DNA of 64,000 bases from Patescibacteria group bacterium (GTDB lineage: Bacteria; Patescibacteriota; Minisyncoccia; UBA6257; 1-14-0-10-40-38): the NCBI GenBank assembly GCA_038064975.1, contig JBBTRX010000002.1:193278-257277 (forward strand), in the 5' to 3' direction. Of the stretch, positions 4,378 through 64,000 are shown piece after piece; the stretch's first letter is position 1; each line of letters opens with the position of its first letter. A model generated the notes under the pieces. The model saw only the letters and a list, made by a program, of their open reading frames with translations, did not search any database and was not told where the DNA came from. Position numbers and translations under genes: made by a program.

Positions 4378-4389
4378 GTTACAGTGTTG

Positions 4390-4554
4390 TACGTCGCGTT
4401 TTGGTAAACTGCGACATCTTCGTCACTCTTCGCTTCATCGATAATCTTGCCTTAGGGTAGCATGTTGTTTTAGAAAAAAAAAGAGAGCGTATATGTAATA
4501 TAAAGTTCGTCGCGTTTTGCTAAACCGCGACATCTTCGTCGCTCTTCGCTCCTT
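4390..4554. repeat. two ~48-bp imperfect direct repeats (4390-4440 and 4503-4554), each with a GTCGCG...CGCGAC hairpin followed by ATCTTCGTCRCTCTTCGCT
   Basis: Direct sequence comparison shows about 44 of 48 identical positions. The repeats lie between tRNA-Lys and glgA. Confidence 0.6.
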
Positions 4555-4684
4555 GAGATGCGAAATTTATAATGCGAATGATGCAAAAAAGTTATTTGTC
4601 GTCAGTCGTTAGTTCTTTATCTTTCATTATTTATTATTCATCGCCCATTATTTTTCGGGATTAATTTATGATATACTCCCTGTT

Positions 4685-7735: not shown

Positions 7736-7738
7736 AAA

Positions 7739-7885
7739 CGCTCGCATTCTTTTTCAAAAAGCTATAAGAATGACCTTTTTAGAAAGAATACTCGCTTGTA
7801 TGACGTAAGGTAGCTCGCATTCTTTTTCAAAACTAGGTCCTCGTCGCTATCGCGCCTGCGAGTAGTTTTTAAAAAGAATACTCGC
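7739..7885. repeat. two copies of an inverted-repeat unit (CTCGCATTCTTTTTCAAAA ... AGAAAGAATACTCGCTTG)
   Basis: Copies are seen at 7739-7800 and 7816-7885. A related GATATTCTTTT/AAAAGAATATC inverted repeat occurs at 40843-40894, upstream of recA. Confidence 0.5.
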
Positions 7886-7963
7886 TTGGAGCGTTATGAG
7901 TCGGTATAGGAGAAAAAAACATCCCCGTACGGTGGGGGTGTTTTTTGTGATACAATAAAATGC

Positions 7964-9848: not shown

Positions 9849-9853
9849 GTAAT

Positions 9854-10409
9854 TGTTTCACGTGAAACATCTGTATAACAAATTAATTCAAACACATTTT
9901 CTATTAAAATTGAAAGTAAGTAATTCAATTGTTTCACGTGAAACAATTTGGTTAATTAGTGGATTGTTAGAATTGTTAAGATGTTTCACGTGAAACATTG
10001 TTCACACGGGAAAATCTTAAATATTGAAGTGATTATTAATATATTCCATGTCCAGGATCTAATAATCCCTATATTTAGTATTTTTTGTTGTTTTCTATTT
10101 TTTGCATTGTTTCACGTGAAACAATGCAAAACAATTCTGTATCGCAAATTTCCTTTTTATAGAAATTGAATACAATGTTTCACGTGAAACATTGATCAAA
10201 GAACGAACTCCAGTTTTTCAATTGTTTCACGTGAAACAATTGAGATTCTTTTTATTCTCGCAATATCATCAAATTGCTATGGAAAATGGATATTTCTATG
10301 AAATTAATGTTTCTCAATTATTTATGCATTGTTTCACGTGAAACAATGCATAAATAGAATATGCTCGCTTGATGTGCTGAATCTGTTACAAAATGTTTCA
10401 CGTGAAACA
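9854..10409. promoter_or_regulatory. array of 8 perfect parS centromere sites, TGTTTCACGTGAAACA, at 9854, 9930, 9982, 10108, 10176, 10223, 10330 and 10394 (each 16 bp)
   Basis: Exact matches to the canonical ParB-binding palindrome were counted by eye. Each core is extended into a longer 20-38 bp palindrome. Spacing is irregular (47-126 bp). The region is non-coding and AT-rich. Confidence 0.85.
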
Positions 10410-10470
10410 TTTTGTAACAGATTTATTGAACTAAAATGTTTTACAGGTGTTTTACACTTAGTAATATATA

Positions 10471-10553
10471 CGGCAATGCGGCAATCATATGAAGAATGCG
10501 GCAATGAATACGGCAATGTATATACGGCAATAGGATACGGCAATTGCCGTATC
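10471..10553. repeat. iteron-like array of six direct RYRCGGCAAT repeats ending in the perfect 22-bp palindrome GGATACGGCAATTGCCGTATCC
   Basis: CGGCAAT starts at 10471, 10479, 10499, 10511, 10525 and 10538. An inverted copy lies at 10543-10549. Confidence 0.8.
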
Positions 10554-10559
10554 CTATAA

Positions 10560-10595
10560 AAATAAAATTGCCAGGGTTTTGTCTGGCAATTTTAT
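10560..10595 (-). terminator. rho-independent terminator of the M15 peptidase gene (AAATTGCCAG/CTGGCAATTT hairpin followed by T-run on the minus strand)
   Basis: Seen in sequence, immediately 3' of the 10625 stop. Confidence 0.6.
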
Positions 10596-10624
10596 TACAA
10601 ACTGAAATATAAGATTAAGCAAGT

Positions 10625-12138: not shown

Positions 12139-12210
12139 CGGCCCATAGCTCAAGGGCAGAGCATCCGTCTTATACACGGGGGGTTGCAGGTTCGAATCCT
12201 GCTGGGCCGA
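12139..12210 (+). tRNA. tRNA-Ile with anticodon TAT (UAU), reading AUA
   Basis: Manual cloverleaf: acceptor CGGCCCA/TGGGCCG, D-arm GCTCAAGGGCAGAGC, anticodon stem TCCGT/ACGGG, loop CTTATAC, T-arm GCAGGTTCGAATCCTGC. Confidence 0.65.
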
Positions 12211-12217
12211 CAACAAA

Positions 12218-14234: not shown

Positions 14235-14250
14235 TGTTTTACGTGAAACA
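14235..14250. promoter_or_regulatory. degenerate parS-like site TGTTTTACGTGAAACA (1 mismatch), adjacent to palindrome TTGTCCGGCAAAGCCGGATCCGGCTTTGCCGGACAA
   Basis: Seen in the ftsH/xer divergent intergenic region. The adjacent palindrome contains the CCGGCAA motif. Confidence 0.55.
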
Positions 14251-25473: not shown

Positions 25474-25565
25474 AGAGTTAAACAGGTGATCAGTTAATCA
25501 GTTGAAGAGTTAAGCTCGTTATTAGTTATAAGTCATTAGTTGTTAGTTATCCTAATATATATTTT

Positions 25566-27665
25566 ATGAAAATTGATCGGCAGGAATTTAAAACGACATT
25601 TGCAGGACAAGAGGTAGTACTTACAACGTCCGGGCTTGCTGGACAGGCGAACGCTGCAGTATTCGGGCGCCATGGCGATACGGAAGTTTTAGCGACGGTA
25701 GTTATGGGTCGCGAAGATCGCGCGGTTGATTTCTTTCCGCTCACCGTTGATTACGAAGAACGTTTTTATGCTGCGGGGAAAATTTTAGGCAGTCGCTATA
25801 TGCGACGTGAAGGTAGGCCATCGGAAGAAGCTATTCTTGCTGGGCGCATTATTGACCGCACTATCCGTCCTCTTTTTGACCATCGCATCCGCCGCGACGT
25901 CCATGTCGTGGTAACCGTGCTTTCCGTTGATGAAAAAAATGACGTTAATTTTATTGCACTTCTTGCAACATCAGCTGCGCTCGCGATTTCAGATATTCCG
26001 TGGAGCGGACCGGTTGCTGGTGTAAAGGTAACGATTGGGAAAGACGGCAAATTTGTTTTCAATCCGGTAAACGGCGAAGCAACGAACACTCATCCGAAAC
26101 TAACGAGCTTTGTCGCAGGAACAGCGGACAGAATCAACATGATAGAAATGGAAGGAGTTGAATCTTCTGAAAGTGAAACTGCAGAAGCGTTCATCGCCGC
26201 GCATAACGAAATTAAAAAACTCGTTGTATGGCAGAACGAGATGATAGGAAAAATTGGAAAGAAGAAAACAAAAGTCCATTTAGACGAACTCCCCACAGAA
26301 CTCCGTGATAAAGCACGCGTATTCCTTGAACCAAAAATTGAAAAGGCAATGTATGTTTCGGATAAAACGGAACGCGAACTGGCACTTGCCGAAGCGCACA
26401 AGGAACTTGATGCCTTTTTAGAAAAAGAATTAGGAGAAGCGTCTCCGCATCATGCGCTTTTAATTTTTGAAGAAGAAACCGATGGTTTAGTGCATCGCAA
26501 TGTTATTGAACGCAATCGCCGTCCGGACGGACGGGGCTTAGATGAAATTCGCGAACTCCACGGGGAAGCGGGAGTGCTCGCACGCGCGCACGGATCGGCA
26601 ATTTTTATGCGTGGCAATACGCAAGCGCTCGCTGTTATTACGCTAGGACCCCCGTCTGCGGAGCAGATTGTAGAAAGTATCGGGTTTACGGGAAAGCGCA
26701 AATTTTTATTGCACTACAACTTTCCTAAATTTTCTGTGGGAGAAGCGGGGACATCTCGTGGTCCAGGACGGCGAGAAATCGGGCACGGCGCGCTTGCAAG
26801 TAAAGCGATTGAGAGCGTACTTCCAACGTCAGCGGAGTTTCCGTATACGATTCGCATCGTTTCAGAAATTCTTTCGTCAAACGGATCTTCATCTATGGCG
26901 ACAGTCTGCGCGGGAATATTAGCGCTTATGGATGCTGGTGTTCCCATTAAGAAACCGGTTGCCGGAATCGCGATGGGACTTATGACTGACAGTAAGGGAA
27001 ATCATAAGGTTTTGACTGACATTCAAGGACCAGAAGATCATTATGGTGATATGGATTTTAAAGTTGCAGGAACAAAAGACGGCATAACTGCTGTCCAACT
27101 TGATGTGAAGATTAGCGGCATTACGCCTGAGATGATTAAAGAAGTTTTGGATAAAGCAAAAATCGCACGCGAAAAGATTTTAGACGTCATGAACGGCGTG
27201 CTCGCAAAGCCACGCGCAGAACTTTCTCCATACGCTCCGATTATTATTACAACGAAGATTGCTCCGGAAAAGATCGGAGAATTAATCGGTCCTGGCGGAA
27301 AGATGATTAACGGCATCATTGAGCGCACAGGCGCCCTCTCAATTGATATTGAAGAAGATGGTTCGGTATTTATCACCGCGGACAAGAAAGAACTCGCCGA
27401 AGCTGCACTGGACGAAGTCCGTGCGATCGGTAAAGTATTTGCGATTGGAGAAGTGATTGATAACGCTGAAGTGGTTCGTATCCTTGATTTTGGAGCTATT
27501 GTCCAAATTGACGCGCATCACGACGGCATGGTTCACGTCTCGGAACTCAAAGACGGATTTGTAAAAAGTGTTACTGACGTTGTAAAAGTGGGGGACAAGA
27601 TTCGCGTAAAAATAGTTCGCATTGAAGACGGCAAGATTGGGCTCTCCATGAAGCAAGCGAGATAG
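25566..27665 (+). CDS. pnp: polyribonucleotide nucleotidyltransferase (PNPase)
   Basis: Two RNase PH-like domains plus C-terminal KH and S1 domains. 699 aa. Confidence 0.95.
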   Translation: MKIDRQEFKTTFAGQEVVLTTSGLAGQANAAVFGRHGDTEVLATVVMGREDRAVDFFPLTVDYEERFYAAGKILGSRYMRREGRPSEEAILAGRIIDRTIRPLFDHRIRRDVHVVVTVLSVDEKNDVNFIALLATSAALAISDIPWSGPVAGVKVTIGKDGKFVFNPVNGEATNTHPKLTSFVAGTADRINMIEMEGVESSESETAEAFIAAHNEIKKLVVWQNEMIGKIGKKKTKVHLDELPTELRDKARVFLEPKIEKAMYVSDKTERELALAEAHKELDAFLEKELGEASPHHALLIFEEETDGLVHRNVIERNRRPDGRGLDEIRELHGEAGVLARAHGSAIFMRGNTQALAVITLGPPSAEQIVESIGFTGKRKFLLHYNFPKFSVGEAGTSRGPGRREIGHGALASKAIESVLPTSAEFPYTIRIVSEILSSNGSSSMATVCAGILALMDAGVPIKKPVAGIAMGLMTDSKGNHKVLTDIQGPEDHYGDMDFKVAGTKDGITAVQLDVKISGITPEMIKEVLDKAKIAREKILDVMNGVLAKPRAELSPYAPIIITTKIAPEKIGELIGPGGKMINGIIERTGALSIDIEEDGSVFITADKKELAEAALDEVRAIGKVFAIGEVIDNAEVVRILDFGAIVQIDAHHDGMVHVSELKDGFVKSVTDVVKVGDKIRVKIVRIEDGKIGLSMKQAR

Positions 27666-27718
27666 TAGGAGAGTTAATGAGTAAACAGTTAATCAGTTGA
27701 GCAGTTGATTTGGAGATC

Positions 27719-27754
27719 AATAATCCCGACCAAAGCGTCGGGATTATTAGTTTT
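27719..27754 (+). terminator. pnp terminator: AATAATCCCGAC-CAAAGC-GTCGGGATTATT plus T-run
   Basis: Seen in sequence. It lies inside the ORF-track ORF 27705.., whose start is therefore rejected. Confidence 0.65.
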
Positions 27755-27794
27755 CCACAGCGTAGTTTGTTTCTTCGTGTGGTATAATTTCGCT

Positions 27795-33707: not shown

Positions 33708-33944
33708 ATGCCAAATACAGCATCAGCCAAAAAAGCATTGAGACAGGGTGATCGCAGGCGGGAAAAGAACCTCGCCGGCATGAAAGACCTGAAAACGGTC
33801 ATAAAGACCTTTAGAAAAGCCCCTTCAGCGGGTGCGCTTTCTATAGTTTATAAAAAGCTTGATAAAGCTGCCAAGGTAAACTTGATCAAGAAGAATGCCG
33901 CAGGACGAATGAAGTCTCGCCTTTCAAAATTGCTCAAAGTGTAG
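33708..33944 (+). CDS. rpsT: 30S ribosomal protein S20
   Basis: Typical basic S20 sequence MPNTASAKKALRQ... Confidence 0.85.
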   Translation: MPNTASAKKALRQGDRRREKNLAGMKDLKTVIKTFRKAPSAGALSIVYKKLDKAAKVNLIKKNAAGRMKSRLSKLLKV

Positions 33945-33995
33945 AATCTAGTATCTAGAAAATAGAATCTAGAAGTTGGTAGTTTGAAAGAAAAT

Positions 33996-43723: not shown

Positions 43724-45027
43724 ATGAAACTCTCACCTTCGATTTTTAAAGCATATGATGTGCGGGGGAAATACCCCGGCGAAATAAATGAAGACGTTGC
43801 GCTGCTCCTTGGCAAGGCGCTTGGTTTGCGATGGATGGGGGGAGAAATAATCGTGGGGTACGATGCTCGTGTGAGCTCTCCAGAACTTGCCGAGGCGCTC
43901 ACAAAGGGTATTCGGGCTGCAGCTCCGGAGAGTACGGTGACGAGTGTTGGGTTAATAACCACGCCAATGCTTACCTATCTTATCCATTCGCGCGGAGCAA
44001 AAGCGGGTGTTGTCGTAACCGCATCGCACAATCCAAAAGAATATAACGGATTTAAAGCAGTGGAAGGACATGGAACGGCGTGGATAACAGGAACGGATAT
44101 GCAAAAACTGATAGCGCAATTGTTATGAATCATTACCAGGAATACGCTGAGTTTTTAAAAAAATTTGTGAGTGTCGCCTCTCCGATCCGTGTTGTTTTTG
44201 ATTCATCAGACGGCGCGACAGGGCCTGTGCTTCACGAACTTTTTACAACTCATCAACTCATCAACTCAATACTCATTAACTCAAAGCCCAATGGAGAGTT
44301 TCCGGCACATGGGCCGAATCCTCTTGCTCGCGGTGCGCAAAAAGATTTGAGAATCGTGGTTAAGAAAAATAATGCCGACTTGGGTGTTATTTTTGACGCG
44401 GACGGGGATAGGGTATTTTTTATTGATAACGAAGGGCGCGAAATTCGATCAGACATTGCTGCGCTTCTCATGTCAGAGGTGTTTCAAGGCCCATTTGTTT
44501 TTGATATCCGAGCAGGATACGCGCTCCGCGATAGGCTGGATGAAACAAAAAAGAAAGCAATCTACTCTCGTGTGGGACACGTGTTTATGAAACGCGCTAT
44601 GCGTGAGCACGGCGCGGAGTTTGGTGGGGAACTCTCCGGACATTTTTATTTTAAAGATTTCTTTTTTGCCGATTCAGGAATTGTTGCCGCGCTTACGATG
44701 ATACGAATTGTCTCTCAATTAGTGCAGAACGAGTCTTCACTCGCTGCGCGACTGGATAGCATTCCCGCAACATATTATTCCGGAGAAGTAAGTATTACGG
44801 TATCTCGTAATGATTCTGCGATAGAGCGGGTTGTCTCTGCGTTTCAAGCCGTTGCGGAACATGTTGACCACACGGACGGCGTGCGTATAGATGCTAAAGA
44901 CTTCTGGATAAGTGTACGGGCATCCAACACCGAGCCTGTCATCCGTTTTGTGCTTGAAGCGCGAGAGAAAAGCGTATTTAACCGTGAACTCAAAAAACTT
45001 AAAGAAGCTATAGGAACAGCAAATTAG
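43724..45027 (+). pseudogene. phosphohexomutase (GlmM/ManB family) split by a frameshift at an A5 tract (44103-44107)
   Basis: ORF 43724..44128 carries the TASHNP active-site loop. ORF 44080..45027 (frame -1) carries DADGDR, GELSGH and RASNTEP. Inserting one A restores ...DMQKTDSAIVMNHYQEY. Confidence 0.8.
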
Positions 45028-46202: not shown

Positions 46203-46308
46203 AGACTATGCGAAAATACGAATATAGCACGAATATACGAAACTATTCCAATATACAAATGTAGCGCGAATATAATTGAGCATGAAGATGCTCATGCACT
46301 AAGTTTGT

Positions 46309-49237: not shown

Positions 49238-49312
49238 TAAACAAGCTGATAATGGACAATAGGGAATTGGGAATGTATTGAAAATTGTAAATTAATAATT
49301 GTAAATTCTCTT

Positions 49313-51733: not shown

Positions 51734-51973
51734 ATTTCATTTTCTTTTCAGCACCACTCTAGTTTTCTAGAGATACATCTCTAGGTATCGGAGTGTTATT
51801 ATACATAAGTAAGGTGAGAGGAATGGGAATGTGAATTAGGTATGATTAGCACTCTTGACATGAGACTGCCAATGGGGATAGCATTAATACAGTATCTAGA
51901 ATCTAGTATTTAGAAATTAGTAGCAATGAAACTAATCAACTCTTTAACTGATTAACTCCTAAACTGTACAACC

Positions 51974-54625
51974 ATGATGCGTAATTTTAATAAATTCACG
52001 ATAAAAGCTCAGGAGGCGCTCCAAAACGCCCAGGATCTAGCCGCGCAACGGAATCATGGCGAATTTCGGGCACTCCATCTGCTTTCCAGTCTTATTGTTG
52101 ACGATCAGTCGCTGGTGCGTCCGCTTCTTATTAAAGCGGGGGTAAGTTTAGAATCTTTAGATAAGTTAATTGAAGAAGAGCTTAATAAATTGCCGAAGAT
52201 ATTTGCCGCATCCTCGGTGGGACAGCTCTATCTCTCTCAGGAATTGATGCAAGTTTTGGATAAGGCGGGAAAAATCGCCCTTTCTCAGAAAGACGAATTC
52301 GTCTCGTGTGAACACTTACTCCTTAGTATTTTAGAAACGCCATCCCCAACCCAATCATTATTGGAGAAATTTGGTTTGCGCCGTGAAAACGCATTCCGTA
52401 TTTTGGCACAGTTGCGCGGTTCTACTCGCATTACAGACGAAACTCCGGAAACAAAATTCCAGGTTTTGGAAAAATATGCCATCAATCTTACGGAACGGGC
52501 ACGAGAAGGCAAACTTGATCCGGTAATCGGACGAGAAGAAGAGCTTCGTCGTGTTATTCAGGTACTTTCCCGAAGGACGAAAAATAATCCGGTATTAATC
52601 GGAGAACCGGGCGTAGGAAAAACAGCTATTGTAGAAGGCTTGGCTCAAAGAATTATCGCTGGTGATGTTCCAGAGCCCTTAAAAGGCAAGGAAATCATCA
52701 TGCTGGATTTAGGATCTCTTATCGCAGGAACTAAGTTCCGCGGAGAATTTGAAGATCGCTTAAAAGCATTTATTAAAGAAATCCAAAACGCAGCAGGTCG
52801 CCTTATTCTTTTCATTGACGAGATTCATATGATAGTAGGCGCCGGTGCCGCTGAAGGCGCGGTAGATGCTTCCAACCTTTTAAAGCCACCCCTTGCTCGC
52901 GGAGAATTACATGCCGTGGGAGCAACTACGATTCGCGAATATCAGCGTCATATTGAAAAAGATCCCGCTCTTGAACGGCGTTTTCAGCCCATTGTAGTTG
53001 AAGAGCCTTCACTTGAAGACACAATTGCTATTTTGCGTGGATTAAAAGAAAAATATGAAATTCACCATGGTCTTCGCATCAGCGACGAGGCTCTTGTTGC
53101 CGCAGCTCATCTTTCCGCACGTTACATTACGGACCGCTTTCTTCCGGACAAAGCGGTTGATTTAATTGACGAAGCGGCCGCAGCGCGGCGTCTTGAATCA
53201 GAAAGTCTTCCTGCGGAAATAGATAAAGTCCGCCAGGCGATCATGCGCTTGGAAATTGAGAAGTCTGCGATTTCAAAGGAATCTGGTGAAAAAAATAAAG
53301 AGCGGGTTAAAACCATTGAAAAAGAACTTGTAGTTCTGAAAGAACAGAACGATGATTTATCCGCAAAATGGCATGCGGAGAAGCTCGCGTTTGAAAATTT
53401 ACATAGTTTGCGGCGGAAAATTGACGATCTTCGCCGCGAGTCGGAACAAGCGGAGCGCGGAGGAGACTTAGAGCGTGTTGCCCAGATTTTGTACGGAGAA
53501 TTGCCTCAAGCCGAAAAAGATTTTGCTACATTTGAAAAGAAGCATTTTGGTACTTCAAAGAAACAAAAGAAAAAAGGAAAAGAAGACGATCAAGTTTTTA
53601 TTAAAGAGGTGGTTGATGAGGAAGATATTGCTTCCGTAGTTTCTCGTTGGACTAATATCCCGGTCATGAGAATGCTGGAGTCCGAAAGTGAAAAACTCTC
53701 TCGCATTGAAGAAGTGCTCGGGAATCGGGTTATTGGTCAGGAAGAAGGCATTCTCGCTGTTTCTAGCGCCTTGCGGCGCGCTCGTGCTGGCCTTGCGGAC
53801 GAGAACAGGCCGACAGGGTCGTTCATGTTCTTAGGGCCGACCGGTGTCGGTAAAACCGAGCTCGCCCGTGCGCTTGCCGAGTTCATGTTCAACGACGACA
53901 AGGCGATGATTAGAGTGGATATGTCGGAGTATATGGAAAAGCACGCCGTTGCGCGTCTTATTGGTTCGCCTCCGGGATATGTGGGTTTTGAAGAAGGGGG
54001 GCAACTCACGGAAGCAGTACGTCATCGTCCGTATAGTTTGATTTTGTTTGATGAAATAGAGAAAGCTCATCCCGATGTTTTTAACGTTCTCTTACAGCTC
54101 TTAGATAATGGCCGGCTCACGGACGCAAAAGGCAAAACCGTTAACTTTAGAAATGCGATTATTATCATGACTTCAAACGTTGGAAGTCATTACTACAAGC
54201 AGATGTCTCAAGTCGGTTTTTCCACATCAGAAAAGGAAATACGGGCCGAAGAGGAGACCTTTAAGGACAAAGCCCGTACGTCGCTCCGTCAGACTTTTAA
54301 GCCGGAATTCTTGAACCGCATAGACGAAATTGTCGTGTTCAATGCGCTCAAACGAAAAGATATTGAACAGATTGTTGATGTCCAAATTGCCGAAGTTAAA
54401 AAGAAATTAAGCAACCGCGGTATCACGGTCTTAGTTGACGCGCCCGCAAGAAAATATATTGTTGATAATGGGTTTGATCCGGATTTTGGAGCTCGGCCTA
54501 TTAAGCGGCTGATCCAAAAGACGATTGTTGATAAACTGGCTGATAGAATTATTAGGGGGCAACTCAAACATGGCGATAAGGTTAAAATCGGTTTTTCAGG
54601 ATCGGCGCTCAGCGTTACTCCTTAA
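51974..54625 (+). CDS. clpB: ATP-dependent chaperone ClpB
   Basis: N-domain, two AAA+ modules and a long middle coiled-coil. 883 aa. Confidence 0.9.
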
Positions 54626-55358
54626 GGCCGTAGTATTCGGGGTATTTTTGTGGATAGCACAGGCGGGGGAAGGCGGATTTGCCCCCGCTTTGTTTTTTAT
54701 ACTCGTTTCCGGCGTGCTCTATTTTTCCCCGTCATTCCGAGGCGGAAAATATATTGGATCAATACTTGTACTCGTGAGTCTCGCTCTATTTTTGGAGCGC
54801 AATACCGTGAGTACCGCTTTCTCTCTTCTCGGTATCCCGTTTTTTAGTGCCCTCGCTTTCTTTCTTTTTGGTGCAAAAGAGCTTGTATTCGCGCGGGCGC
54901 GCACATGGGCACTTTTATTTGCTTTTGGAGTTACTTATGCAGCAACGCTTGCCTTATTTTTAATAGAATCAGATGCGTTTATTCGCGCTGCTTTTACCTA
55001 TGGCATTATGATTTTTCTCACCTGGAGAGATTTCTTTTCCTCCACAGCCTCTACTCGCATTTCTACTGACACTCCTTTAGTCGGCAATGAAAGTGGTGAA
55101 GAGAAAATTGTACAACTCCGCGGGAGCCATTATTTCTCGGCGCTCGTCATAACCTATTTAGGAGTGGAAACGGCATGGGCCGTTCGCTTGCTTCCGTTAG
55201 ATGCTATTGGGGGAGCAAACCTTACTTTCCTTGGACTCATTGCCGTTCTCAATATTATCTTGCGCAGTGCAGAGCAGGGGCTTTCAAAGCGCATTCTTCT
55301 TATGAGCGTTACGGTGTTTATTGCCCTTCTCCTCTTTATGCTGTGGATGAATCTGTAA
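54570..55358 (+). CDS. hypothetical multi-pass membrane protein (start uncertain; overlaps clpB 3' end)
   Basis: ORF track. It is strongly hydrophobic. Confidence 0.4.
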   Translation: MAIRLKSVFQDRRSALLLKAVVFGVFLWIAQAGEGGFAPALFFILVSGVLYFSPSFRGGKYIGSILVLVSLALFLERNTVSTAFSLLGIPFFSALAFFLFGAKELVFARARTWALLFAFGVTYAATLALFLIESDAFIRAAFTYGIMIFLTWRDFFSSTASTRISTDTPLVGNESGEEKIVQLRGSHYFSALVITYLGVETAWAVRLLPLDAIGGANLTFLGLIAVLNIILRSAEQGLSKRILLMSVTVFIALLLFMLWMNL

Positions 55359-55472
55359 CGTAAAATAAAATATCAAATATTAAATCTCAAAAACCATCTA
55401 ACCAATCAACTAATTCACCATTTAACTAATTAACTATTTTCCGCACGCAATCCGGCAACGGATTGACGGAAA

Positions 55473-56204
55473 ATGTTAATTGCCGTATATTCTTGCCGTA
55501 TGGATATCCAGCGGCAATCACAACTAGTAAGCTTTGCGGCACTTCGAATTGCCGCATATGTAAAAAGGAGAGAGCTGCGCGATCGCTTAAGCCGTCTCGC
55601 GTTTGATCTTATTGAGGCAGTTTCACAGAAAGATACTCATAAAATAAGCGAAGTTATCCTCTCTTTGCAGGGGCTTATATCGTTAGGTAAGGCATTGTAC
55701 GAAGTTGAGCCTACAAACGCCGATATTGTTATTGAGGAATCAGGTAAAATACTTGAGTTTGAGTTTGGAGAGGATACTCAAGATAAACCGGCAATCAAAG
55801 AAGTGGATATTTCTGGAATATTCAAAAAAGAGAGAACGCTCTTTTCTCATGAATTAGAGAAACCGAAAGAGATAAAGAAAAGCGGCAACGGCAATAAGGC
55901 AGAAGGTGTTAAAAAAATAATGCGGCAAGAGGATACGGCAAAAGAGAATAAGGCAATAGTCATAACTCCAGAGAAGCCACATATAAAGCAAAGCCAGGAG
56001 GAAAACCCGGCAATACGGCAATCGGCAATGCGAGATAAGATACGGCAAATAGGGGAGGCAGAGTTAAAGGATCTTATTGCCGCATTTCCCAATGTGAGCG
56101 AACGGACGATACGGTATGACGTGCAACGGTTATGTGCTGATGGATTAGTGGAGCGTATAGGTCCTGGAGGACCCGGAAGTTTCTATCGGGTAAGATCGGT
56201 GTAA
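55473..56204 (+). CDS. putative DNA-binding protein with C-terminal winged-helix motif (SERTIRYDVQRLCADGLVERIG); start uncertain
   Basis: ORF track. The C-terminal wHTH-like segment is the basis. Its 5' region and body are rich in ATTGCCGTAT/CGGCAAT motifs. Confidence 0.4.
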   Translation: MLIAVYSCRMDIQRQSQLVSFAALRIAAYVKRRELRDRLSRLAFDLIEAVSQKDTHKISEVILSLQGLISLGKALYEVEPTNADIVIEESGKILEFEFGEDTQDKPAIKEVDISGIFKKERTLFSHELEKPKEIKKSGNGNKAEGVKKIMRQEDTAKENKAIVITPEKPHIKQSQEENPAIRQSAMRDKIRQIGEAELKDLIAAFPNVSERTIRYDVQRLCADGLVERIGPGGPGSFYRVRSV

Positions 56205-56737
56205 TATACTCTTTTTTCTTCCGTTATACACGATATAGCTCAATAATCATTTAAGATATTCACAGTTGTGTATTTTTTATGAGGTATTGAGTAATATGGA
56301 TTTTGTTGATATAGTTAGTTTTGCTTAGGTGAGGCTAAGCATGCATCGAACGGAATAGCTTATAAACTGAATAACTGATAACTCTTTCTGAGTTACTGGT
56401 TGTAAGGTATGAGTTATAAGTTTGTGCGTATAGCCTCGCTTTAAAAGCGAGTTTTTTATTTATTTGATACTAGAGTCAAGCGTTTTGCTAGTGAGGTCGA
56501 TTCCCCTCCCCAGCTTTCATTTAAAAATGCCTAGCACAGGCACAAGAAGGTTGCGGTGGGGAAAATAGCATCAAAGCGCATGGCTTCCCGAAATGTAAGT
56601 TGTAGTGCATGAGATTCATTCAATAGAAATAATAAAAAAGGGAAGGCAGTCGTGGTCGGTAGGTGCCCTCCCGGTGATCAATTCCAAATGGTCACTACTA
56701 GTAACAAGTTAAAATAATATAAAAGTCACAATTAATT

Positions 56738-60452: not shown

Positions 60453-61154
60453 ATGAAAAATAAAATCCTACTCATAGGTATCGGGGGAGTCGTTATCGCT
60501 ATCGGTATTTTTTTGTTACCGACGTTTTCCAATAATGGAAAGAAGGAAAGTAATGATAGTAATGCATTGGAATTTGCGACGACAAGCAACAAAAACGATA
60601 GTAACGAAAAAGAGAAAGAGATTGTATATCCTAAATCCGGACAGGAAAAAAATATTGTGTTACCTGTTTACACCGGCGAGGATATTACAGCAATAGGGTC
60701 AGATCCTTTTATAGCCTCTCTCTCTCAGGAATTAAAAAATCAATACATTGGAGAGCTTAACGATTTAAAGTTAGTGGTAACAAATAATCCTAATAATTTT
60801 GACGCTTGGATGCGCATCGGGATTATTAAAGTTTTTTTTAATAACTACTTTGGTGCTCGAGATGTATGGGAGTACACAAGTATTATTTTCCCCAAAAACT
60901 CTCTATCCTATCTTAATTTGGGGAATCTCTACTCCGCGCATTTGAAAGATAACCAAAAAGCTGAACAGAATTATCTACGGGCGATTAATAATGATCCGAG
61001 CCTCCCCCAGCTTTATGTGGCGCTTGCGGATTTTTATTGGACATTTGATGGGCAAAAAAAGGAGAAAGCAGTCGCAATTATCCAAGATGGTTTGAAGAGA
61101 ATTCCTGAAGACGTCTCACTTCTGAATGCCTTGAAATTTTATTCTGCACAGTAG
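60453..61154 (+). CDS. membrane-anchored TPR-repeat protein
   Basis: MKNKILLIGIGGVVIAIGIFL TM is followed by TPR-like helices. The start was trimmed to 60453. Confidence 0.55.
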   Translation: MKNKILLIGIGGVVIAIGIFLLPTFSNNGKKESNDSNALEFATTSNKNDSNEKEKEIVYPKSGQEKNIVLPVYTGEDITAIGSDPFIASLSQELKNQYIGELNDLKLVVTNNPNNFDAWMRIGIIKVFFNNYFGARDVWEYTSIIFPKNSLSYLNLGNLYSAHLKDNQKAEQNYLRAINNDPSLPQLYVALADFYWTFDGQKKEKAVAIIQDGLKRIPEDVSLLNALKFYSAQ

Positions 61155-62269
61155 ATCTGTTTCGTTTTTCTTATCATGGTTTCAAGTGAAAATTCTTCCA
61201 TAACTCTTTTTCGATTTATCTCGCCAGTTTCTCGCGCTTGAGGTTTGTCATGAGCTAACGCAATTATTTTCCTTGCAAGGATTTTCGCGTTCCGTATCGG
61301 GATAATATGTAAGGGATTTGAAATTGCTTCAGGCATTCCTCCAGTATTGGTTATAATTGATGGAATTTCTGCCGCCATAGCTTCAAGAAGTACATAGGGT
61401 AGCCCTTCTTTTATTGAGGTCATTGTAAAAATATCAAATGCTTTGAGATATTCTGCATCTTCCCCAGTCGGAGGAACGATAAAAAATCGATCATTCATTT
61501 TTAGATTTGAGATTTTAGATTTGAGATTTGATTTCTCCTTTCCTTCTCCAATGATGAAAAAATAAACATCCGGGACTAAAGCCGCAGTTCGAACAAGAGT
61601 TTCATAATCTTTTTCTTTTGTTAGGCGGCCGATTGAACCTATCCATATCCCATGAGTTGTTAGTTGTTGGTTGTTAGTTGTTAGCTTCTTGACGATTTCT
61701 TTTCGTGCATTATCTCTATCTAAAAAAGGTATATTGGGGTCAATCCCATTATGAATAGTGACCAGCTTATGGGGTGGGGCGATTCTATAGTGTAGGGCGA
61801 GGTCATGGTCATGTTGCGATACATTAATAATCACGTTTTGGAATAAAGCGGCAATGCGATGGAGTATTCTATAAAATAATTGTATAGGTTTTGCTACCGC
61901 ATTCGTTGGGTTGAAAACCCATCCGTGAGCGGTGAAAATAATTTTGGGACATGGGACGTGTGACGGGCGACAGGTAAACTTATACAGCCATCCAGCAAGG
62001 GAACCAATCACTCCAGCTTTAGAACTATTCAGATGGATGACGTTGGGTCTTTCTTTTCTGAAAATGCTCACGAGCTCAATAACTGCAAAAATATCGTTTG
62101 CAAAAAGAGCGAAAGGAAGCGTTCTATTAGAAAGCCATTTCACATCAACCCCTCCTCGTATGATTTTAGGATCAAAAACAGATTGATCTAATTTCCCTGC
62201 AAGATCAGCAACATATTTTTGTGCTCCTCCAGTATCCTGTTTTGTGATAACGTAAAGTATCTTTTGCAT
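61139..62269 (-). CDS. glycosyltransferase family 4
   Basis: GT-B fold with EX7E region EGLPYVLLEAMAAEIP. It contains in-frame low-complexity inserts (KSNLKSKISNLK; TTNNQQLTT). Confidence 0.75.
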   Translation of the reverse strand: MQKILYVITKQDTGGAQKYVADLAGKLDQSVFDPKIIRGGVDVKWLSNRTLPFALFANDIFAVIELVSIFRKERPNVIHLNSSKAGVIGSLAGWLYKFTCRPSHVPCPKIIFTAHGWVFNPTNAVAKPIQLFYRILHRIAALFQNVIINVSQHDHDLALHYRIAPPHKLVTIHNGIDPNIPFLDRDNARKEIVKKLTTNNQQLTTHGIWIGSIGRLTKEKDYETLVRTAALVPDVYFFIIGEGKEKSNLKSKISNLKMNDRFFIVPPTGEDAEYLKAFDIFTMTSIKEGLPYVLLEAMAAEIPSIITNTGGMPEAISNPLHIIPIRNAKILARKIIALAHDKPQARETGEINRKRVMEEFSLETMIRKTKQIYCAE

Positions 62270-62320: not shown

Positions 62321-64000
62321 ATGTCACCAGTATCGTCTCGTATAGCAGTGTTTTCGCTTGCCTACGCCCCGCATGAAGCGGGAGCGGAAATTGCAGTACG
62401 TGAAATCATGGAGCGAATGCCTACTACTCATTTTACGGTATTCGCCCAAAGCTTTGATGCCTCGCTTCCAATACTTTCTTCGAAAGATAATATTAGCCTC
62501 CATCGCGTAGGTGCAGGGAAAAATATTTTTTCAAAGTTGCTTTATATTATGCGTGCCTGGCGCGCGGCAGAATCTGCTCACAAGAACGACCCATTTACGG
62601 CCGTTTGGGCTGTGATGGCAGCATATGCTGGAGGCGCGGCACTTCTTTTTAAACTTCGCCATCCGCGCATACCATTGCTTCTCACACTTCAGGAGGGGGA
62701 CTCTGAAAAACATATTCTCCGTCGTGTCTTTTTGTTCTATCCGCTTTGGCGCCTCATCTTTAAAAAAGCTGACCATGTACAGGCGATAAGTTCTTACTTG
62801 GCTGATTTCGCTCGCAGGCACGGAGCTGCGTGTCCTATTGATATTATTCCAAATGGAGTCGATGTGGAGAAAATAAAATCTCAAATATTAAATCTCAAAT
62901 CTGATGAGAAAAATAAAAAAGATTTTCGTATCATAACTACATCACGGCTTGTGAATAAAAATGGGATTGATACCCTTTTACGGGCAAGCGCTATTCTCAA
63001 GAAGAAAAATATTCCGTTTGAGCTATGGATAGTAGGAAGTGGTCCTGAAGAGAGAAGACTCAAAGCGCTTGCTGCAGAACTTGATCTTGAAGACAAGGTA
63101 GTATGGCACGGATCCGTCCCAGCGGAGGCTATTCCTTCGTATCTTAAAGCCGCTACGGTATTTGTGCGCGCATCCCGATCCGAAGGATTAGGAAATTCTT
63201 TTCTTGAAGCTATGGCTTCAGGGCTTCCGATTATTGGAACTCCTGTCGGAGGCATCCCCGATTTTTTGAAAGACGGAGAAACGGGATTATTTACAGATGT
63301 AGATGATTCTCACGATCTTGCATGGAATATAGAGCGCCTATTTGCCGATATTCATTTACGGAATCGCCTCATTGTGAATGGGCAAGCGCTTGTACGCGAT
63401 CAGTATTCTTGGAATTATGTTGTGAAAGAAATGCTAAATATATTTAGCACTCTTTGTGTGCGATATCGTATTATCATCGCATCGGGGATCGTGCCTCCTG
63501 AGATTGGAGGGCCGGCTTATTATGCGAAGGAGCTTTCTCAAGCATTAGAAATTCAAGGTAATAAGGCGCGATTGATTGCTTATGGACGTCTGAAACGCCT
63601 GCCAACCGGCCTACGGCATATCGCTTATAGTTTCAAGCTTTTATTTTCTCTCATTTTTTCTCGCCCCTCTTTTCTTATAGCGCTGGATACGTTTAGCGTT
63701 GGCTTTCCTGCGGTCCTTATGGGGAAGCTCATGGGCGTGCCGGTTATGGTCCGTACCGGAGGAGATTTCTTATGGGAGTTTTATGTAGAGCGTACCGGAG
63801 AAAAAATAATGCTCTCTGATTTTTATAGGCAACCTCGTGCATTTACGTTAAAAGAAAGAATTATTTTTCGCCTTACAGGGTGGACGCTGCTTCATGCGAA
63901 GTTCGTGATATTTAGTACTCCGTATCAGCGAGATATTTTTATCCCTGCTTACGGAATAAACGAATCACGTACGGCTATTATTGAAAATTGCTATGACGTC
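62321..64000 (+). CDS. glycosyltransferase family 4, apparently fused to a second GT4 N-terminal domain (open to window end)
   Basis: My own translation from ATG 62321 has no stop to the end of the window. It contains EGLGNSFLEAMASGLPIIGTP, then RIIIASGIVPPEIGGPAYYAKEL (a GT4 N-terminus). It is missing from the ORF track because it has no stop. Confidence 0.6.
   Translation, partial: MSPVSSRIAVFSLAYAPHEAGAEIAVREIMERMPTTHFTVFAQSFDASLPILSSKDNISLHRVGAGKNIFSKLLYIMRAWRAAESAHKNDPFTAVWAVMAAYAGGAALLFKLRHPRIPLLLTLQEGDSEKHILRRVFLFYPLWRLIFKKADHVQAISSYLADFARRHGAACPIDIIPNGVDVEKIKSQILNLKSDEKNKKDFRIITTSRLVNKNGIDTLLRASAILKKKNIPFELWIVGSGPEERRLKALAAELDLEDKVVWHGSVPAEAIPSYLKAATVFVRASRSEGLGNSFLEAMASGLPIIGTPVGGIPDFLKDGETGLFTDVDDSHDLAWNIERLFADIHLRNRLIVNGQALVRDQYSWNYVVKEMLNIFSTLCVRYRIIIASGIVPPEIGGPAYYAKELSQALEIQGNKARLIAYGRLKRLPTGLRHIAYSFKLLFSLIFSRPSFLIALDTFSVGFPAVLMGKLMGVPVMVRTGGDFLWEFYVERTGEKIMLSDFYRQPRAFTLKERIIFRLTGWTLLHAKFVIFSTPYQRDIFIPAYGINESRTAIIENCYDV

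What the first reader, a model, noticed from the sequence alone, without database searches (positions are those of the whole stretch)
44242..44285. Dispersed AT-rich mini-repeat family (core AGTTAATSAGTT / AACTSATTAACT) present in intergenic regions and inserted in-frame in the phosphohexomutase CDS
Copies are at 25478, 27670, 44242-44285 (encoding LFTTHQLINSILINSK in-frame), 51925-51955 (clpB upstream) and 55395-55440. An in-frame 40-nt insertion of a non-coding repeat into a conserved enzyme suggests an active or recently active small insertion element, or slippage-prone minisatellite.
Basis: seen in the sequence. Interest (0 to 1): 0.5.

Follow-up and report, generated by a model that had tools for sequence, protein, structure and literature searches.

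The report
Dispersed eight-base tandem repeat arrays
The repeat is real, but in the sugar-phosphate mutase gene it is an old, normally folded stretch of the protein and not an insertion. It belongs to a class of 7-8-base tandem arrays that fill spacers and tolerant gene segments across this group of ultra-small groundwater bacteria.

Summary
Observation confirmed. Arrays of 4-5 units of AGTTRATS / AACTNATN (period 8) lie at 25475-25514, 27671-27709, 44246-44283, 51929-51966 and 55399-39. There is also an inverted pair at 56341-56429. The 12-mer gives 10 hits against 0.7 expected.

Interpretation only partly supported. The mutase segment THQLINSILINS is not an insertion. The loop has the basal length seen inside and outside the phylum. 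It models as helix end, turn and core strand (pLDDT ~94) and includes a near-invariant Asn. The same array sits at the same codons in orthologs only 40-47% identical. Additional assemblies from three other sequencing runs are base-identical, so no recent activity is visible.

The array belongs to a wider phenomenon in Patescibacteria (Paceibacteria). Tandem arrays of period 7-8 occur at about 23 per 100 kb, against 3.6 in other phyla at matched GC and 0.3-0.4 per period in shuffles. Each genome favours its own units. Arrays occupy spacers and recurrent hot spots in housekeeping genes: 18 of 43 mutase orthologs carry one at these codons, with different units.

Best explanation: slipped-misalignment repeats evolving in concert. 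The closest known kinds are TAACTGA and cyanobacterial heptamer repeats.

The parts
25475..25514 (+). Array of five 8-nt units (GAGTTAAA CAGGTGAT CAGTTAAT CAGTTGAA GAGTTAAG). It lies in the 92-bp spacer between the NYN-domain gene and pnp, which is the pnp leader. AGTT is the sense reading.
   Evidence: neighbouring genes
25518..25550 (+). Adjoining 7-nt array (GTTATTA x4.7, an AGTTATT-type unit). It ends 16 nt before the pnp ATG at 25566.
27671..27709 (+). Array of five units (GAGTTAAT GAGTAAA CAGTTAAT CAGTTGAG CAGTTGAT). It sits between the pnp stop (27665) and a strong terminator-like hairpin (about 27712-27755).
44246..44283 (-). The flagged array. On the + strand it reads CAACTCAT CAACTCAT CAACTCAAT ACTCATT AACTCA, so the AGTT reading is on the - strand. 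It encodes T41-S53 (TTHQLINSILINS) of the phosphomannomutase C-terminal ORF.
43724..44128 (+). Phosphohexomutase domain I ORF (134 aa, contains TASHNP). It is separate from the rest of the enzyme and overlaps the next ORF by ATGA.
44125..45027 (+). Phosphohexomutase domains II-IV ORF (300 aa). It is the host of the array. DADGDR, GELSGH and SNTEP motifs are present.
51929..51966 (-). Array AAACTAAT CAACTCTT TAACTGAT TAACTCCT AAACTG in the clpB 5' leader (AACT is the sense reading). It lies downstream of a CIRCE-like operator and ends 7 nt before the ATG at 51974. There is no Shine-Dalgarno sequence.
55399..55439 (-). Array TAACCAAT CAACTAAT TCACCATT TAACTAAT TAACTATT, between a stop at 55358 and the HTH gene start at 55473. 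A hairpin follows it.
56341..56429 (.). Inverted pair of the same unit family (AACTGAAT AACTGAT AACTC ... GAGTTACTGGTT ... GAGTTATAAGTT). It forms a long hairpin: -31.4 kcal/mol, z = -5.0.
61655..61684 (+). 7-nt array AGTTGTT x4.3 inside the GT4 glycosyltransferase gene 61139-62269 (- strand). It encodes LTTNNQQLTT. Orthologs have the same length here, each with its own 7-aa-periodic peptide.
61499..61531 (+). 7-nt array TTTGAGA x4.7 (unit AAATCTC) in the same GT4 gene, encoding NLKSKISNLK. The same unit recurs at 62876-62902.
62876..62902 (+). 7-nt array AAATCTC x3.9 inside a second GT4 gene (+ strand, from about 62321).
33942..33974 (+). Intergenic 7-nt array TAGAATC x4.7. The same unit (AATCTAG) recurs at 51894-51915 in the clpB leader.
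51894..51915 (+). Intergenic 7-nt array ATCTAGA x3.1 (unit AATCTAG), directly upstream of the AACT array in the clpB leader.
49277..49307 (+). Intergenic 7-nt array ATTGAAA x4.4, directly upstream of the cysteine desulfurase gene.
55368..55391 (+). Intergenic 7-nt array AAATATC x3.4, next to the 55399 array.

Best explanation
The AGTTRATS / AACTNATN copies are short tandem arrays of 4-5 degenerate units with a period of 8 nt (sometimes 7). They are not a discrete insertion element. They are one genome-specific unit family within a lineage-wide class of 7-8-nt tandem arrays in Patescibacteria (Paceibacteria).

Inferred mechanism: nascent-strand slippage or transient misalignment with a preferred register of 7-8 nt creates neighbouring units and keeps them alike (concerted evolution). 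Arrays persist where they are tolerated. In spacers and untranslated leaders, where they are unstructured, length is free. In genes they persist only at permissive helix-turn-strand segments and only when the reading frame is kept. That happens either with no net length change, as templated 'overwriting', or in steps that preserve the frame.

The copy in the phosphomannomutase gene is an old array of this kind. It was laid down at the main hot spot of that gene in an ancestor of a subclade, and it now evolves as ordinary, folded, constrained coding sequence.

Shown: the arrays and their statistics; the absence of an insertion; the age of the array; the structural location; the clade-wide excess; the hot spots; genome-specific units; lag-7 co-variation. 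Inferred: the slippage mechanism, and near-neutrality of the spacer copies.
For: The arrays are real and phased.

The mutase copy is not an insertion. The alignment shows the window with the shortest form of the loop, and the loop is 25 aa, equal to the basal length.

The segment is folded. The AF2 model has mean pLDDT 91.3, the 41-50 block scores 94, and the elements are H32-40, turn, E46-51. N52 is near-invariant.

The array is old. L001, L007 and L086-L090 (40-47% aa identity) carry (A)AACTCAT-type periodic DNA at the same codons.

The excess is clade-wide. Period-7 arrays of at least 3 copies occur at 17.0 per 100 kb in 975 kb of Patescibacteria loci, against 1.8 in other phyla and 0.3 in Markov shuffles. 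For periods 7-8 together at matched GC the figures are 22.9 against 3.6. Spacers carry 47 per 100 kb and CDS 16.5.

There are hot spots. 18 of 43 mutase orthologs have an array over the codons aligned to residues 40-52, with roughly 8-11 different units. A second hot spot lies at residues 135-147.

There is evidence for concerted evolution without length change. At two sites in GT4 nearly all 19 orthologs keep the same length but show lineage-specific 7-aa periodic peptides (LTTNNQQLTT, LQTTNYKLQT, LKTQSSKLKT, LEIGNWKLEI). Lag-7 identity is about 0.3, against about 0.05 at other lags.

Units are genome-specific. Identical units occur in 6.9% of within-genome array pairs against 1.5% of between-genome pairs. 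AACTNAT units are 6/14 in the window against 3/179 elsewhere. L062 has two identical 30-nt arrays in two different genes.

The direct arrays have no RNA structure, with z between -0.7 and +1.0.

Literature: heptameric repeats are over-represented in many bacteria, and this has been attributed to the polymerase footprint and slippage (PMC4692102).
Against: No unit-number polymorphism was seen. Contigs from three other sequencing runs are identical to the window, so ongoing slippage is not demonstrated. These are consensus assemblies from one aquifer.

Simple slippage adds 7-8 nt and would shift the frame. Arrays of basal length in essential genes therefore require either templated misalignment without indels or compensated events, and neither was observed directly.

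Slippage alone does not explain why one genome re-uses the same unit at dispersed sites. Nor does it explain why the ancient mutase array matches the window's spacer family, where the chance expectation is about 1-2%.

Inverted array pairs (for the window; for relatives) suggest hairpin-based processes or selection for structure.

The position of arrays in leaders just upstream of start codons resembles the TAACTGA repeats, for which a translational role was proposed (PMC4679880).
Confidence: 0.62

Rival explanations
1. The arrays are cis-regulatory binding arrays. A genome-specific RNA- or DNA-binding factor (for example S1, a Csp-like protein or another single-strand binder) recognises the AACU/AGUU unit in leaders and trailers and tunes translation or mRNA decay. 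The CDS copies would be tolerated by-products or extra sites.
For: Five of the six AACT-family arrays lie in positions that are probably transcribed but untranslated: the pnp leader and trailer, the clpB leader 7 nt before the ATG, and upstream of the HTH gene. The leaders lack Shine-Dalgarno sequences. The arrays are unstructured. Units are genome-specific. The closest described repeats, TAACTGA, sit just upstream of start codons and were proposed to act in translation (PMC4679880). clpB leaders of relatives also carry arrays.
Against: Orientation relative to transcription is mixed: AGTT is the sense reading at both pnp sites, and AACT is the sense reading at clpB, 55399, the mutase gene and GT4. 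Units in orthologous leaders of relatives are unrelated. Only 7 of 57 genes have a Shine-Dalgarno sequence, so lacking one is not special here. About 74% of arrays in the clade lie inside ORFs of housekeeping enzymes. No candidate factor was identified.
Confidence: 0.17
2. This is the first reader's view: a small mobile insertion element (MITE-like or RPE-like), active or recently active, that inserted in frame into the mutase gene and into spacers.
For: The same unit occurs at six or more dispersed sites. L062 has identical 30-nt arrays in two genes. In relatives, inverted-array hairpins sit in frame in IscS and MnmA, where array-bearing loops are longer (median 39 against 25 aa). A hairpin copy lies in the window at 56341-56429.
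Against: The mutase site shows no length gain. The array there is shared by orthologs 40-47% identical. The copies share nothing beyond the unit itself: there are no termini and no target duplication, and unit number and phase vary. Contigs from other sequencing runs are identical. No transposase-like gene lies next to any copy.
Confidence: 0.07
3. The arrays are phase-variation (contingency) repeats. Gain or loss of one 7-8-nt unit would shift the frame and switch surface-glycan genes (mutase, GT4) on and off.
For: Apart from an A/G-rich period-8 tract in clpB (53557-53586), all array-bearing genes in the window belong to glycan synthesis: the PMM C-terminal ORF and two GT4 genes. The unit length is not a multiple of 3.
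Against: The arrays are short (4-5 units) and imperfect (70-91% matches). They have the same length across orthologs. Contigs from other sequencing runs are identical. In relatives the same kind of array sits in essential housekeeping genes such as IscS, MnmA, TsaD and MurD.
Confidence: 0.05
4. The mutase segment resembles the spacer repeats only by chance, through codon choice for a conserved peptide.
For: The peptide theme xTH[QK]LIxSKLIN is conserved in a subclade. Between the window and L001, 51% of identical residues use the same codon across the whole gene, so 8 of 10 in this segment is not striking on its own.
Against: The segment contains a 21-nt stretch that is perfectly periodic at 8 nt, and the unit matches the genome's dominant spacer family, which is rare elsewhere (3/179). 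Also, 18 of 43 orthologs have some 7-8-nt array at exactly these codons, and protein-level selection does not predict that.
Confidence: 0.05

Closest known systems
TAACTGA intergenic heptamer direct repeats of marine Beggiatoaceae, Cyanobacteria and some Bacteroidetes (MacGregor 2015, PMC4679880)
   Same: Both are short tandem sets (2-6 copies) of an AACTG-core unit dispersed over many spacers. They often lie directly upstream of start codons that lack a Shine-Dalgarno sequence. A minority lie inside ORFs, occasionally as inverted pairs. In both cases the unit is lineage-restricted and the function is unknown.
   Different: Here the period is 8 and the units are degenerate (AACTNATN). Exact TAACTGA is not enriched (5 against 6.6 expected) and never occurs in tandem. 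Orientation relative to the downstream gene is mixed. The host is a Patescibacterium. The in-ORF copies sit in conserved, folded segments of housekeeping enzymes, not at protein ends. A relative (L010) has a perfect (TAACTGG)x21 array.
STRR (short tandemly repeated repetitive) heptanucleotides of heterocystous cyanobacteria, and the general over-representation of heptameric simple repeats in bacteria (own knowledge of Mazel et al. 1990 and Mrazek et al. 2007; both summarised in PMC4692102)
   Same: Both consist of 7-nt (here 7-8-nt) units in head-to-tail arrays. A few unit sequences recur at many loci of one genome. They are mostly intergenic. A slippage origin tied to the polymerase footprint has been proposed.
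   Different: The phylum and the units differ. These arrays are short and degenerate, and many are embedded in frame in conserved genes at recurrent hot spots.
GGGAATC / GGGGAYT heptamer repeats of Xanthomonas and Nostoc (PMC4692102)
   Same: Both are genus-specific heptamer arrays in spacers, sometimes in inverted pairs, and they vary between close relatives.
   Different: Those repeats are G-rich and can form quadruplexes. The arrays here are AT-rich with no predicted structure.
Rickettsia palindromic elements, selfish repeats inserted in frame in protein-coding genes (own knowledge, Ogata et al. 2000)
   Same: This is repeat DNA of non-coding type that is tolerated in frame in conserved enzymes. 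It is the closest analogue for the inverted-array insertions seen in IscS of relatives.
   Different: RPEs are defined palindromic elements of 100-150 bp with conserved sequence. The arrays here have no defined ends, and the mutase copy adds no length.
Tandem repeats of Borg elements that create new disordered protein regions (PMC9879509, listed; abstract only)
   Same: These are pervasive, fast-evolving tandem repeats that arise independently both in spacers and in ORFs.
   Different: From my own recollection, not checked here, in-ORF Borg units are multiples of three and add disordered regions. Here the units are 7-8 nt, the frame is kept over three units, and the flagged copy is part of the folded core.

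Membership tests
Heptamer/octamer simple tandem repeat class (STRR-like arrays) | Head-to-tail copies of a 7-nt (here 7-8-nt) unit | tested here: met
   TRF finds period 8, 3.5-4.9 copies and 70-80% matches at the five sites. AACT phased at 8 nt gives 10 hits against 0.41 expected.
Heptamer/octamer simple tandem repeat class (STRR-like arrays) | The same unit recurs at many dispersed loci of one genome | tested here: met
   There are 6-8 sites in 64 kb. AACTNAT units are 6/14 in the window against 3/179 in other genomes. Within-genome unit identity is 6.9% against 1.5% between genomes.
Heptamer/octamer simple tandem repeat class (STRR-like arrays) | Preferentially intergenic | tested here: met
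   Spacers carry 47 arrays per 100 kb and CDS 16.5 in Patescibacteria loci. Five of six AACT-family arrays in the window are intergenic.
Heptamer/octamer simple tandem repeat class (STRR-like arrays) | Copy number varies between strains or populations | tested here: inconclusive
   Contigs from three other sequencing runs are identical to the window. These are consensus sequences from one site. Between species, loop lengths at the hot spot do differ (23-36 aa).
STRR sensu stricto (cyanobacterial STRR1-3) | Units CCCCAGT / TTGGTCA / CAACAGT in heterocystous cyanobacteria (own knowledge) | tested here: not met
   The units here are AACTNATN and others. The host is Patescibacteria (source names).
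TAACTGA direct repeats (PMC4679880) | Exact TAACTGA unit repeated in tandem with a 7-nt period | tested here: not met
   There are 5 occurrences of TAACTGA against 6.6 expected, none in tandem, and the period is 8.
TAACTGA direct repeats (PMC4679880) | Forward orientation ending a few nt upstream of a start codon, no Shine-Dalgarno sequence | tested here: inconclusive
   The feature is met for clpB, where the array ends 7 nt before the ATG. It is partly met for the gene at 55473. The orientation is reversed at pnp.
Mobile miniature insertion element (MITE / RPE-like) | Copies share defined ends or terminal inverted repeats and a target-site duplication | tested here: not met
   The flanks of the six copies share nothing beyond the unit.
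Mobile miniature insertion element (MITE / RPE-like) | The copy is an insertion relative to orthologs lacking it | tested here: not met
   The mutase loop is 25 aa, the basal length. The GT4 sites have the same length in nearly all 19 orthologs. The feature is met only for IscS of relatives.
Phase-variable contingency repeat | A long, perfect repeat tract in or before an ORF, with unit-number variants in the population | tested here: not met
   The arrays have 4-5 imperfect units and no variants among the contigs from other sequencing runs.
alpha-D-phosphohexomutase (PGM/PMM) superfamily (host gene) | Four domains (Pfam PGM_PMM_I-IV) with the catalytic Ser loop, the metal loop DxDGDR, the sugar loop GExSGH and the phosphate loop | tested here: met
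   Domain I is in ORF 43724-44128, with TASHNP. Domains II-IV are in 44125-45027, with DADGDR, GELSGH and ASNTEP. The enzyme is encoded as two ORFs.

The most novel reading that the evidence does not exclude
Paceibacteria may possess a unit-directed process that writes or homogenises repeats. Candidates are templated misalignment, ectopic conversion between arrays, or a trans-acting factor that co-evolves with its unit. Such a process would repeatedly overwrite the same permissive helix-turn-strand segments of housekeeping enzymes (PMM, GT4, IscS, MnmA, TsaD) with genome-specific 7-8-nt arrays, often without changing length. It would yield fast-evolving 7-residue-periodic peptides and matching arrays in mRNA leaders. 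That would make it a previously undescribed mode of concerted sequence turnover inside essential bacterial genes, possibly linked to translation of mRNAs that lack a Shine-Dalgarno sequence.
Probability: 0.2. Interest if true: 0.75.

Novelty: new member of a known kind. Interest (0 to 1): 0.45.

Why it matters
For annotation, the flagged segment should not be read as a mobile-element insertion or as damage. The mutase is split into two ORFs but otherwise looks intact, and the repeat encodes part of its folded core.

The check also exposed a strong and apparently undescribed pattern. Paceibacteria carry about six times more 7-8-nt tandem arrays than other phyla at matched GC, and each genome favours its own units. 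The arrays recur at the same codons of conserved enzymes in many lineages while the segment length stays constant.

If confirmed on complete genomes, this would give a tractable case for three questions: how slippage-type processes reshape essential proteins in reduced genomes, why heptamer repeats are favoured in bacteria (a question left open in PMC4692102 and PMC4679880), and whether such arrays serve as unstructured leaders in organisms that rarely use Shine-Dalgarno sequences.

Tried and rejected
- Rfam scan of the whole window at gathering thresholds: only four tRNAs, and no RNA family at any array.
- RNA folding of the direct arrays: no structure beyond shuffles, with z from -0.7 to +1.0. 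Only the neighbouring terminator-like hairpins and the inverted pair at 56341-56429 fold.
- Metagenome scan for AGTTRATSAGTTRATSAGTT: at least 120 loci from very diverse habitats with GC 0.28-0.70, none in a mutase context, many of them long arrays or inverted pairs. This octamer is not specific to the lineage, and the scan did not help. By my rough estimate, a few tens of hits would be expected by chance in a collection of that size.
- Test for codon-level conservation beyond protein constraint between the window and L001: not significant on its own. Eight of 10 identical residues use the same codon, against a gene-wide rate of 51%.
- Exact TAACTGA membership: rejected.
- Extension of the census 8.3 kb beyond the right end of the window: no further arrays.
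- Cumulative GC skew, to test whether the palindrome-rich region at about 10 kb is an origin that could set array orientation: no turning point.
- Literature searches for repeats in Patescibacteria or the candidate phyla radiation: nothing relevant.
- Not used: the single-job representative-protein search, fold searches, and the third homolog search.
Full report
**What is at the coordinates.** The + strand at 44242-44285 reads tttacaACTCATCAACTCATCAACTCAATACTCATTAACTCAaag. It lies in the ORF 44125-45027 and is translated in frame as LFTTHQLINSILINSK. Tandem Repeats Finder reports a period-8 array at 44246-44283 with 4.9 copies and 80% matches. It reports arrays of the same unit at 25476-25503, 27672-27706, 51930-51958 and 55399-55436. 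AACT phased three times at 8-nt spacing occurs 10 times against 0.41 expected. One is an inverted pair of the same unit at 56341-56429, which folds into a strong hairpin (-31.4 kcal/mol, z = -5.0). The other is a related 7-nt array (AGTTGTT x4.3) in a glycosyltransferase gene at 61655-61684.

**Context of the copies.** The window comes from a Patescibacteria genome sampled in Hainich groundwater (source names). The array at 25475-25514, followed by a 7-nt array at 25518-25550, fills the spacer between a NYN-domain gene and pnp in an rpsO-NYN-pnp operon. The array at 27671-27709 lies between the pnp stop codon and a terminator-like hairpin. The array at 51929-51966 lies in the clpB leader, downstream of a CIRCE-like operator, and ends 7 nt before the ATG. 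The array at 55399-55439 lies ahead of a DeoR-like HTH gene. Relative to transcription, AGTT is the sense reading at the two pnp sites. AACT is the sense reading at clpB, at 55399, in the mutase gene and in GT4. There is therefore no orientation rule. The direct arrays are predicted to be unstructured. The copies share only the unit; the flanks have nothing in common.

**Is the mutase copy an insertion? No.** The enzyme is encoded as two ORFs: domain I at 43724-44128 and domains II-IV at 44125-45027, overlapping by ATGA. This split form is the rule among Patescibacteria homologs. In an alignment of 19 homologs the window protein has the shortest version of the region. Between the anchors D-x-S-[ND]-G-x-x-G and FPAHGPNP it has 25 residues. 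The two non-CPR orthologs have 24-25, and array-free Patescibacteria orthologs have a median of 25. An AlphaFold model (mean pLDDT 91.3, pTM 0.89) places the array-encoded residues T41-S53 at the end of helix 32-40, a short turn, and beta-strand 46-51. The pLDDT is about 94 in that block. N52 is conserved in at least 90% of homologs. The repeat therefore encodes part of the folded core of domain II, and it occupies the space of the ordinary sequence.

**Is it recent? No.** The closest ortholog (L001, 46% identity, syntenic) has ACTCATCAACTCATTAACTCAAAACTCATCAACT at the same codons, encoding THQLINSKLIN. L007 and five further orthologs (L086-L090, 40-47% identity) carry the same theme, with (A)AACTCAT-type phasing still visible. 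The array therefore predates the divergence of a whole subclade. Contigs from three other sequencing runs, and the ENA contig, are 100% identical to the window. All of them cover the array at 44246; the ENA contig and one of the run contigs also cover 51929. The extra codon identity with L001 is not significant by itself: 8 of 10 identical residues use the same codon, against a gene-wide rate of 51%.

**The wider phenomenon.** Reading the same loop in 80 genome loci showed that many Patescibacteria orthologs encode it with 7-8-nt tandem repeats of different units. Examples are GTATTAA, GTCAAAT, CGAATAA, CTAAAAG, CCGCAAT and AATTAAA. A TRF census followed, covering 975 kb of Patescibacteria loci and 395 kb of loci from other phyla. 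Arrays of period 7 with at least 3 copies occur at 17.0 per 100 kb in Patescibacteria, against 1.8 in other phyla and 0.3 in Markov shuffles. For period 8 the figures are 3.8, 1.3 and 0.4. For periods 7-8 together at matched GC (0.35-0.45) the densities are 22.9 and 3.6 per 100 kb. Patescibacteria spacers carry 47 per 100 kb and coding sequence 16.5. About three quarters of the arrays lie inside ORFs.

Mapped onto the mutase alignment, 18 of 43 orthologs have an array over the codons aligned with window residues 40-52. A second hot spot lies at residues 135-147. Half of the array-bearing loops have the basal length. The others are 3-11 residues longer, and three related orthologs with 7-nt units are about +7 aa, which equals three heptamers.

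Other array-rich genes are IscS-like cysteine desulfurases, MnmA, TsaD, a glycogen-synthase-like gene and MurD. In IscS the arrays often come as inverted pairs, (GAATTAT)n ... (ATAATTC)n. There they are true in-frame insertions: the loop has a median of 39 aa with arrays and 25 aa without.

**Concerted evolution.** The two arrays in the window's GT4 gene lie at sites where nearly all 19 aligned orthologs have the same length. Each lineage nevertheless has its own 7-residue-periodic peptide: LTTNNQQLTT, LQTTNYKLQT, LKTQSSKLKT, LEIGNWKLEI, and NLKSKISNLK against NYKLQITNYK against ELKVKSEKLK. Residue identity at lag 7 is about 0.3, against about 0.05 at other lags. Co-variation towards identical residues seven positions apart is not what structural contacts produce. 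It is what homogenisation of adjacent DNA units produces.

Units are also genome-specific. Array pairs within a genome share an identical unit 4.6 times more often than pairs between genomes. L062 has the same perfect 30-nt array in two different genes. AACTNAT-type units are 6 of 14 arrays in the window but 3 of 179 elsewhere. L089, a member of the mutase subclade, has an AAACTCA array in its IscS gene as well.

**Mechanism.** The best-supported reading is that these are slippage-type simple repeats with a preferred register of 7-8 nt. In spacers, length is free. In genes, only frame-preserving outcomes survive, and only in permissive helix-turn-strand segments. Arrays of basal length are most simply explained by transient misalignment that copies a neighbouring unit without a net indel. 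This step is inferred, not shown. Published work notes that heptameric repeats are over-represented in many bacteria, and attributes this tentatively to the length of DNA held by the polymerase (PMC4692102).

Slippage alone does not explain three things: the re-use of one unit at dispersed sites, the match between the ancient mutase array and this genome's spacer family, and the inverted pairs. These leave room for ectopic conversion or for a unit-specific factor. A regulatory role in leaders cannot be excluded. Only 7 of 57 called genes have a Shine-Dalgarno sequence, and many look leaderless. An unstructured repeat leader could therefore help initiation at clpB and pnp. However, orientation is mixed, and the units in orthologous leaders of relatives are unrelated.

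**Comparison with known repeats.** The nearest described family is the TAACTGA heptamer direct repeat of Beggiatoaceae, Cyanobacteria and Bacteroidetes. Those repeats form short tandem sets, mostly just upstream of start codons without ribosome-binding sites, with some inside ORFs (PMC4679880). The window's family shares the AACTG core and this habit, but it fails the defining test. Exact TAACTGA is not enriched and never occurs in tandem, and the period is 8. Cyanobacterial STRR heptamers and the Xanthomonas/Nostoc G-rich heptamers are the same kind of object with other units. Rickettsia palindromic elements are the analogue for the IscS insertions of relatives, but not for the mutase copy. 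I found no paper describing such arrays in Patescibacteria. The library searched is incomplete.

**Verdict.** The repeat family is real and genome-specific. The claim of an in-frame insertion by an active element is not supported for the flagged copy. That copy is an ancient, folded, length-neutral array at a recurrent hot spot. The finding is a new member of the known class of bacterial heptamer/octamer tandem repeats. It sits within a clade-wide pattern, arrays at conserved codons of essential genes evolving in concert, that deserves a proper genome-scale study.

Noticed in passing
window 9849-10624 (palindromes at 9854-10409; one more at 14235-14250): Eight perfect copies of the 16-bp palindrome TGTTTCACGTGAAACA (0.03 expected) lie in a 776-bp spacer with 29% GC. 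Seven ATACGGCAAT repeats follow at 10468-10552. This looks like an iteron-like or operator hub. Cumulative GC skew shows no turning point there.
   Followed up: partly
window 55473-56204 and 55927-56085; L016 19600-19648; L019 19701-19759: The DeoR-like HTH gene and its surroundings carry about eight ATACGGCAAT-type motifs. Orthologs in relatives carry CGGCAAT arrays inside the same gene. The motif may link this regulator to the repeat cluster at 10468-10552.
   Followed up: no
window 43724-44128 and 44125-45027: The phosphohexomutase is encoded as two ORFs, domain I and domains II-IV, with an ATGA overlap. Most Patescibacteria homologs found are the 300-aa C-terminal piece, with a separate domain-I ORF upstream. 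In several relatives a 7-8-nt array sits at or next to the split (L010 9958-9991, L062 9964-9994).
   Followed up: partly
window 51846-51872: A CIRCE-like operator (TTAGCACTC-N9-GACTGCCAA) overlaps a TTGACA box upstream of clpB. Canonical CIRCE (TTAGCACTC-N9-GAGTGCTAA) occurs in the clpB leaders of L007, L010 and L014, with a near-canonical variant in L012.
   Followed up: partly
window-wide (gene starts listed from L002, L211, L212): Only 7 of 57 called genes have a Shine-Dalgarno-like sequence. Many have a TATAAT-like box 7-12 nt before the ATG, which suggests widespread leaderless mRNAs.
   Followed up: partly
L006 9037-9115; L020 4840-4898; L014 13898-13972; L010 6563-6638; L047 14548-14630: Inverted heptamer arrays of GAATTAT type, (GAATTAT)n-loop-(ATAATTC)n, occur in several different genomes. 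They are found in spacers and in frame in IscS, MnmA and MurD, where they give peptides such as MNYESGI...IHNSKFII.
   Followed up: partly
L010 17449-17594: A perfect intergenic (TAACTGG)x21 array in a Harrisonbacteria genome. It is one base away from the TAACTGA repeats described in Beggiatoaceae and Cyanobacteria.
   Followed up: no
window 12139-12211: tRNA-Ile with anticodon TAT, which is uncommon in bacteria (own knowledge).
   Followed up: no
window 46211-46274; L008, L014, L016 spacers: CGAATA-type repeats (CGAATATACGAATATAGCA x3.4 in the window) recur in spacers of several unrelated Patescibacteria loci. This suggests a more widely shared motif than the genome-specific units.
   Followed up: no
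window 4385-4560 and 7736-7900: Two pairs of longer direct repeats in spacers: gtcgcgttttg.taaac.gcgacatcttcgtc.ctcttcgct twice near tRNA-Lys, and ctcgcattctttttcaaaa / aaaaagaatactcgcttg copies around 7740-7890.
   Followed up: no
loci L106, L107, L109, L111, L113, L119, L123, L127 and others from the metagenome scan: In one group of metagenomes, (AGTTAATC)n arrays abut a conserved sequence (ttttatagtggcc.aagtaa.a.aactactgc.ag). This looks like the end of a repeated, probably mobile, element unrelated to the window.
   Followed up: no
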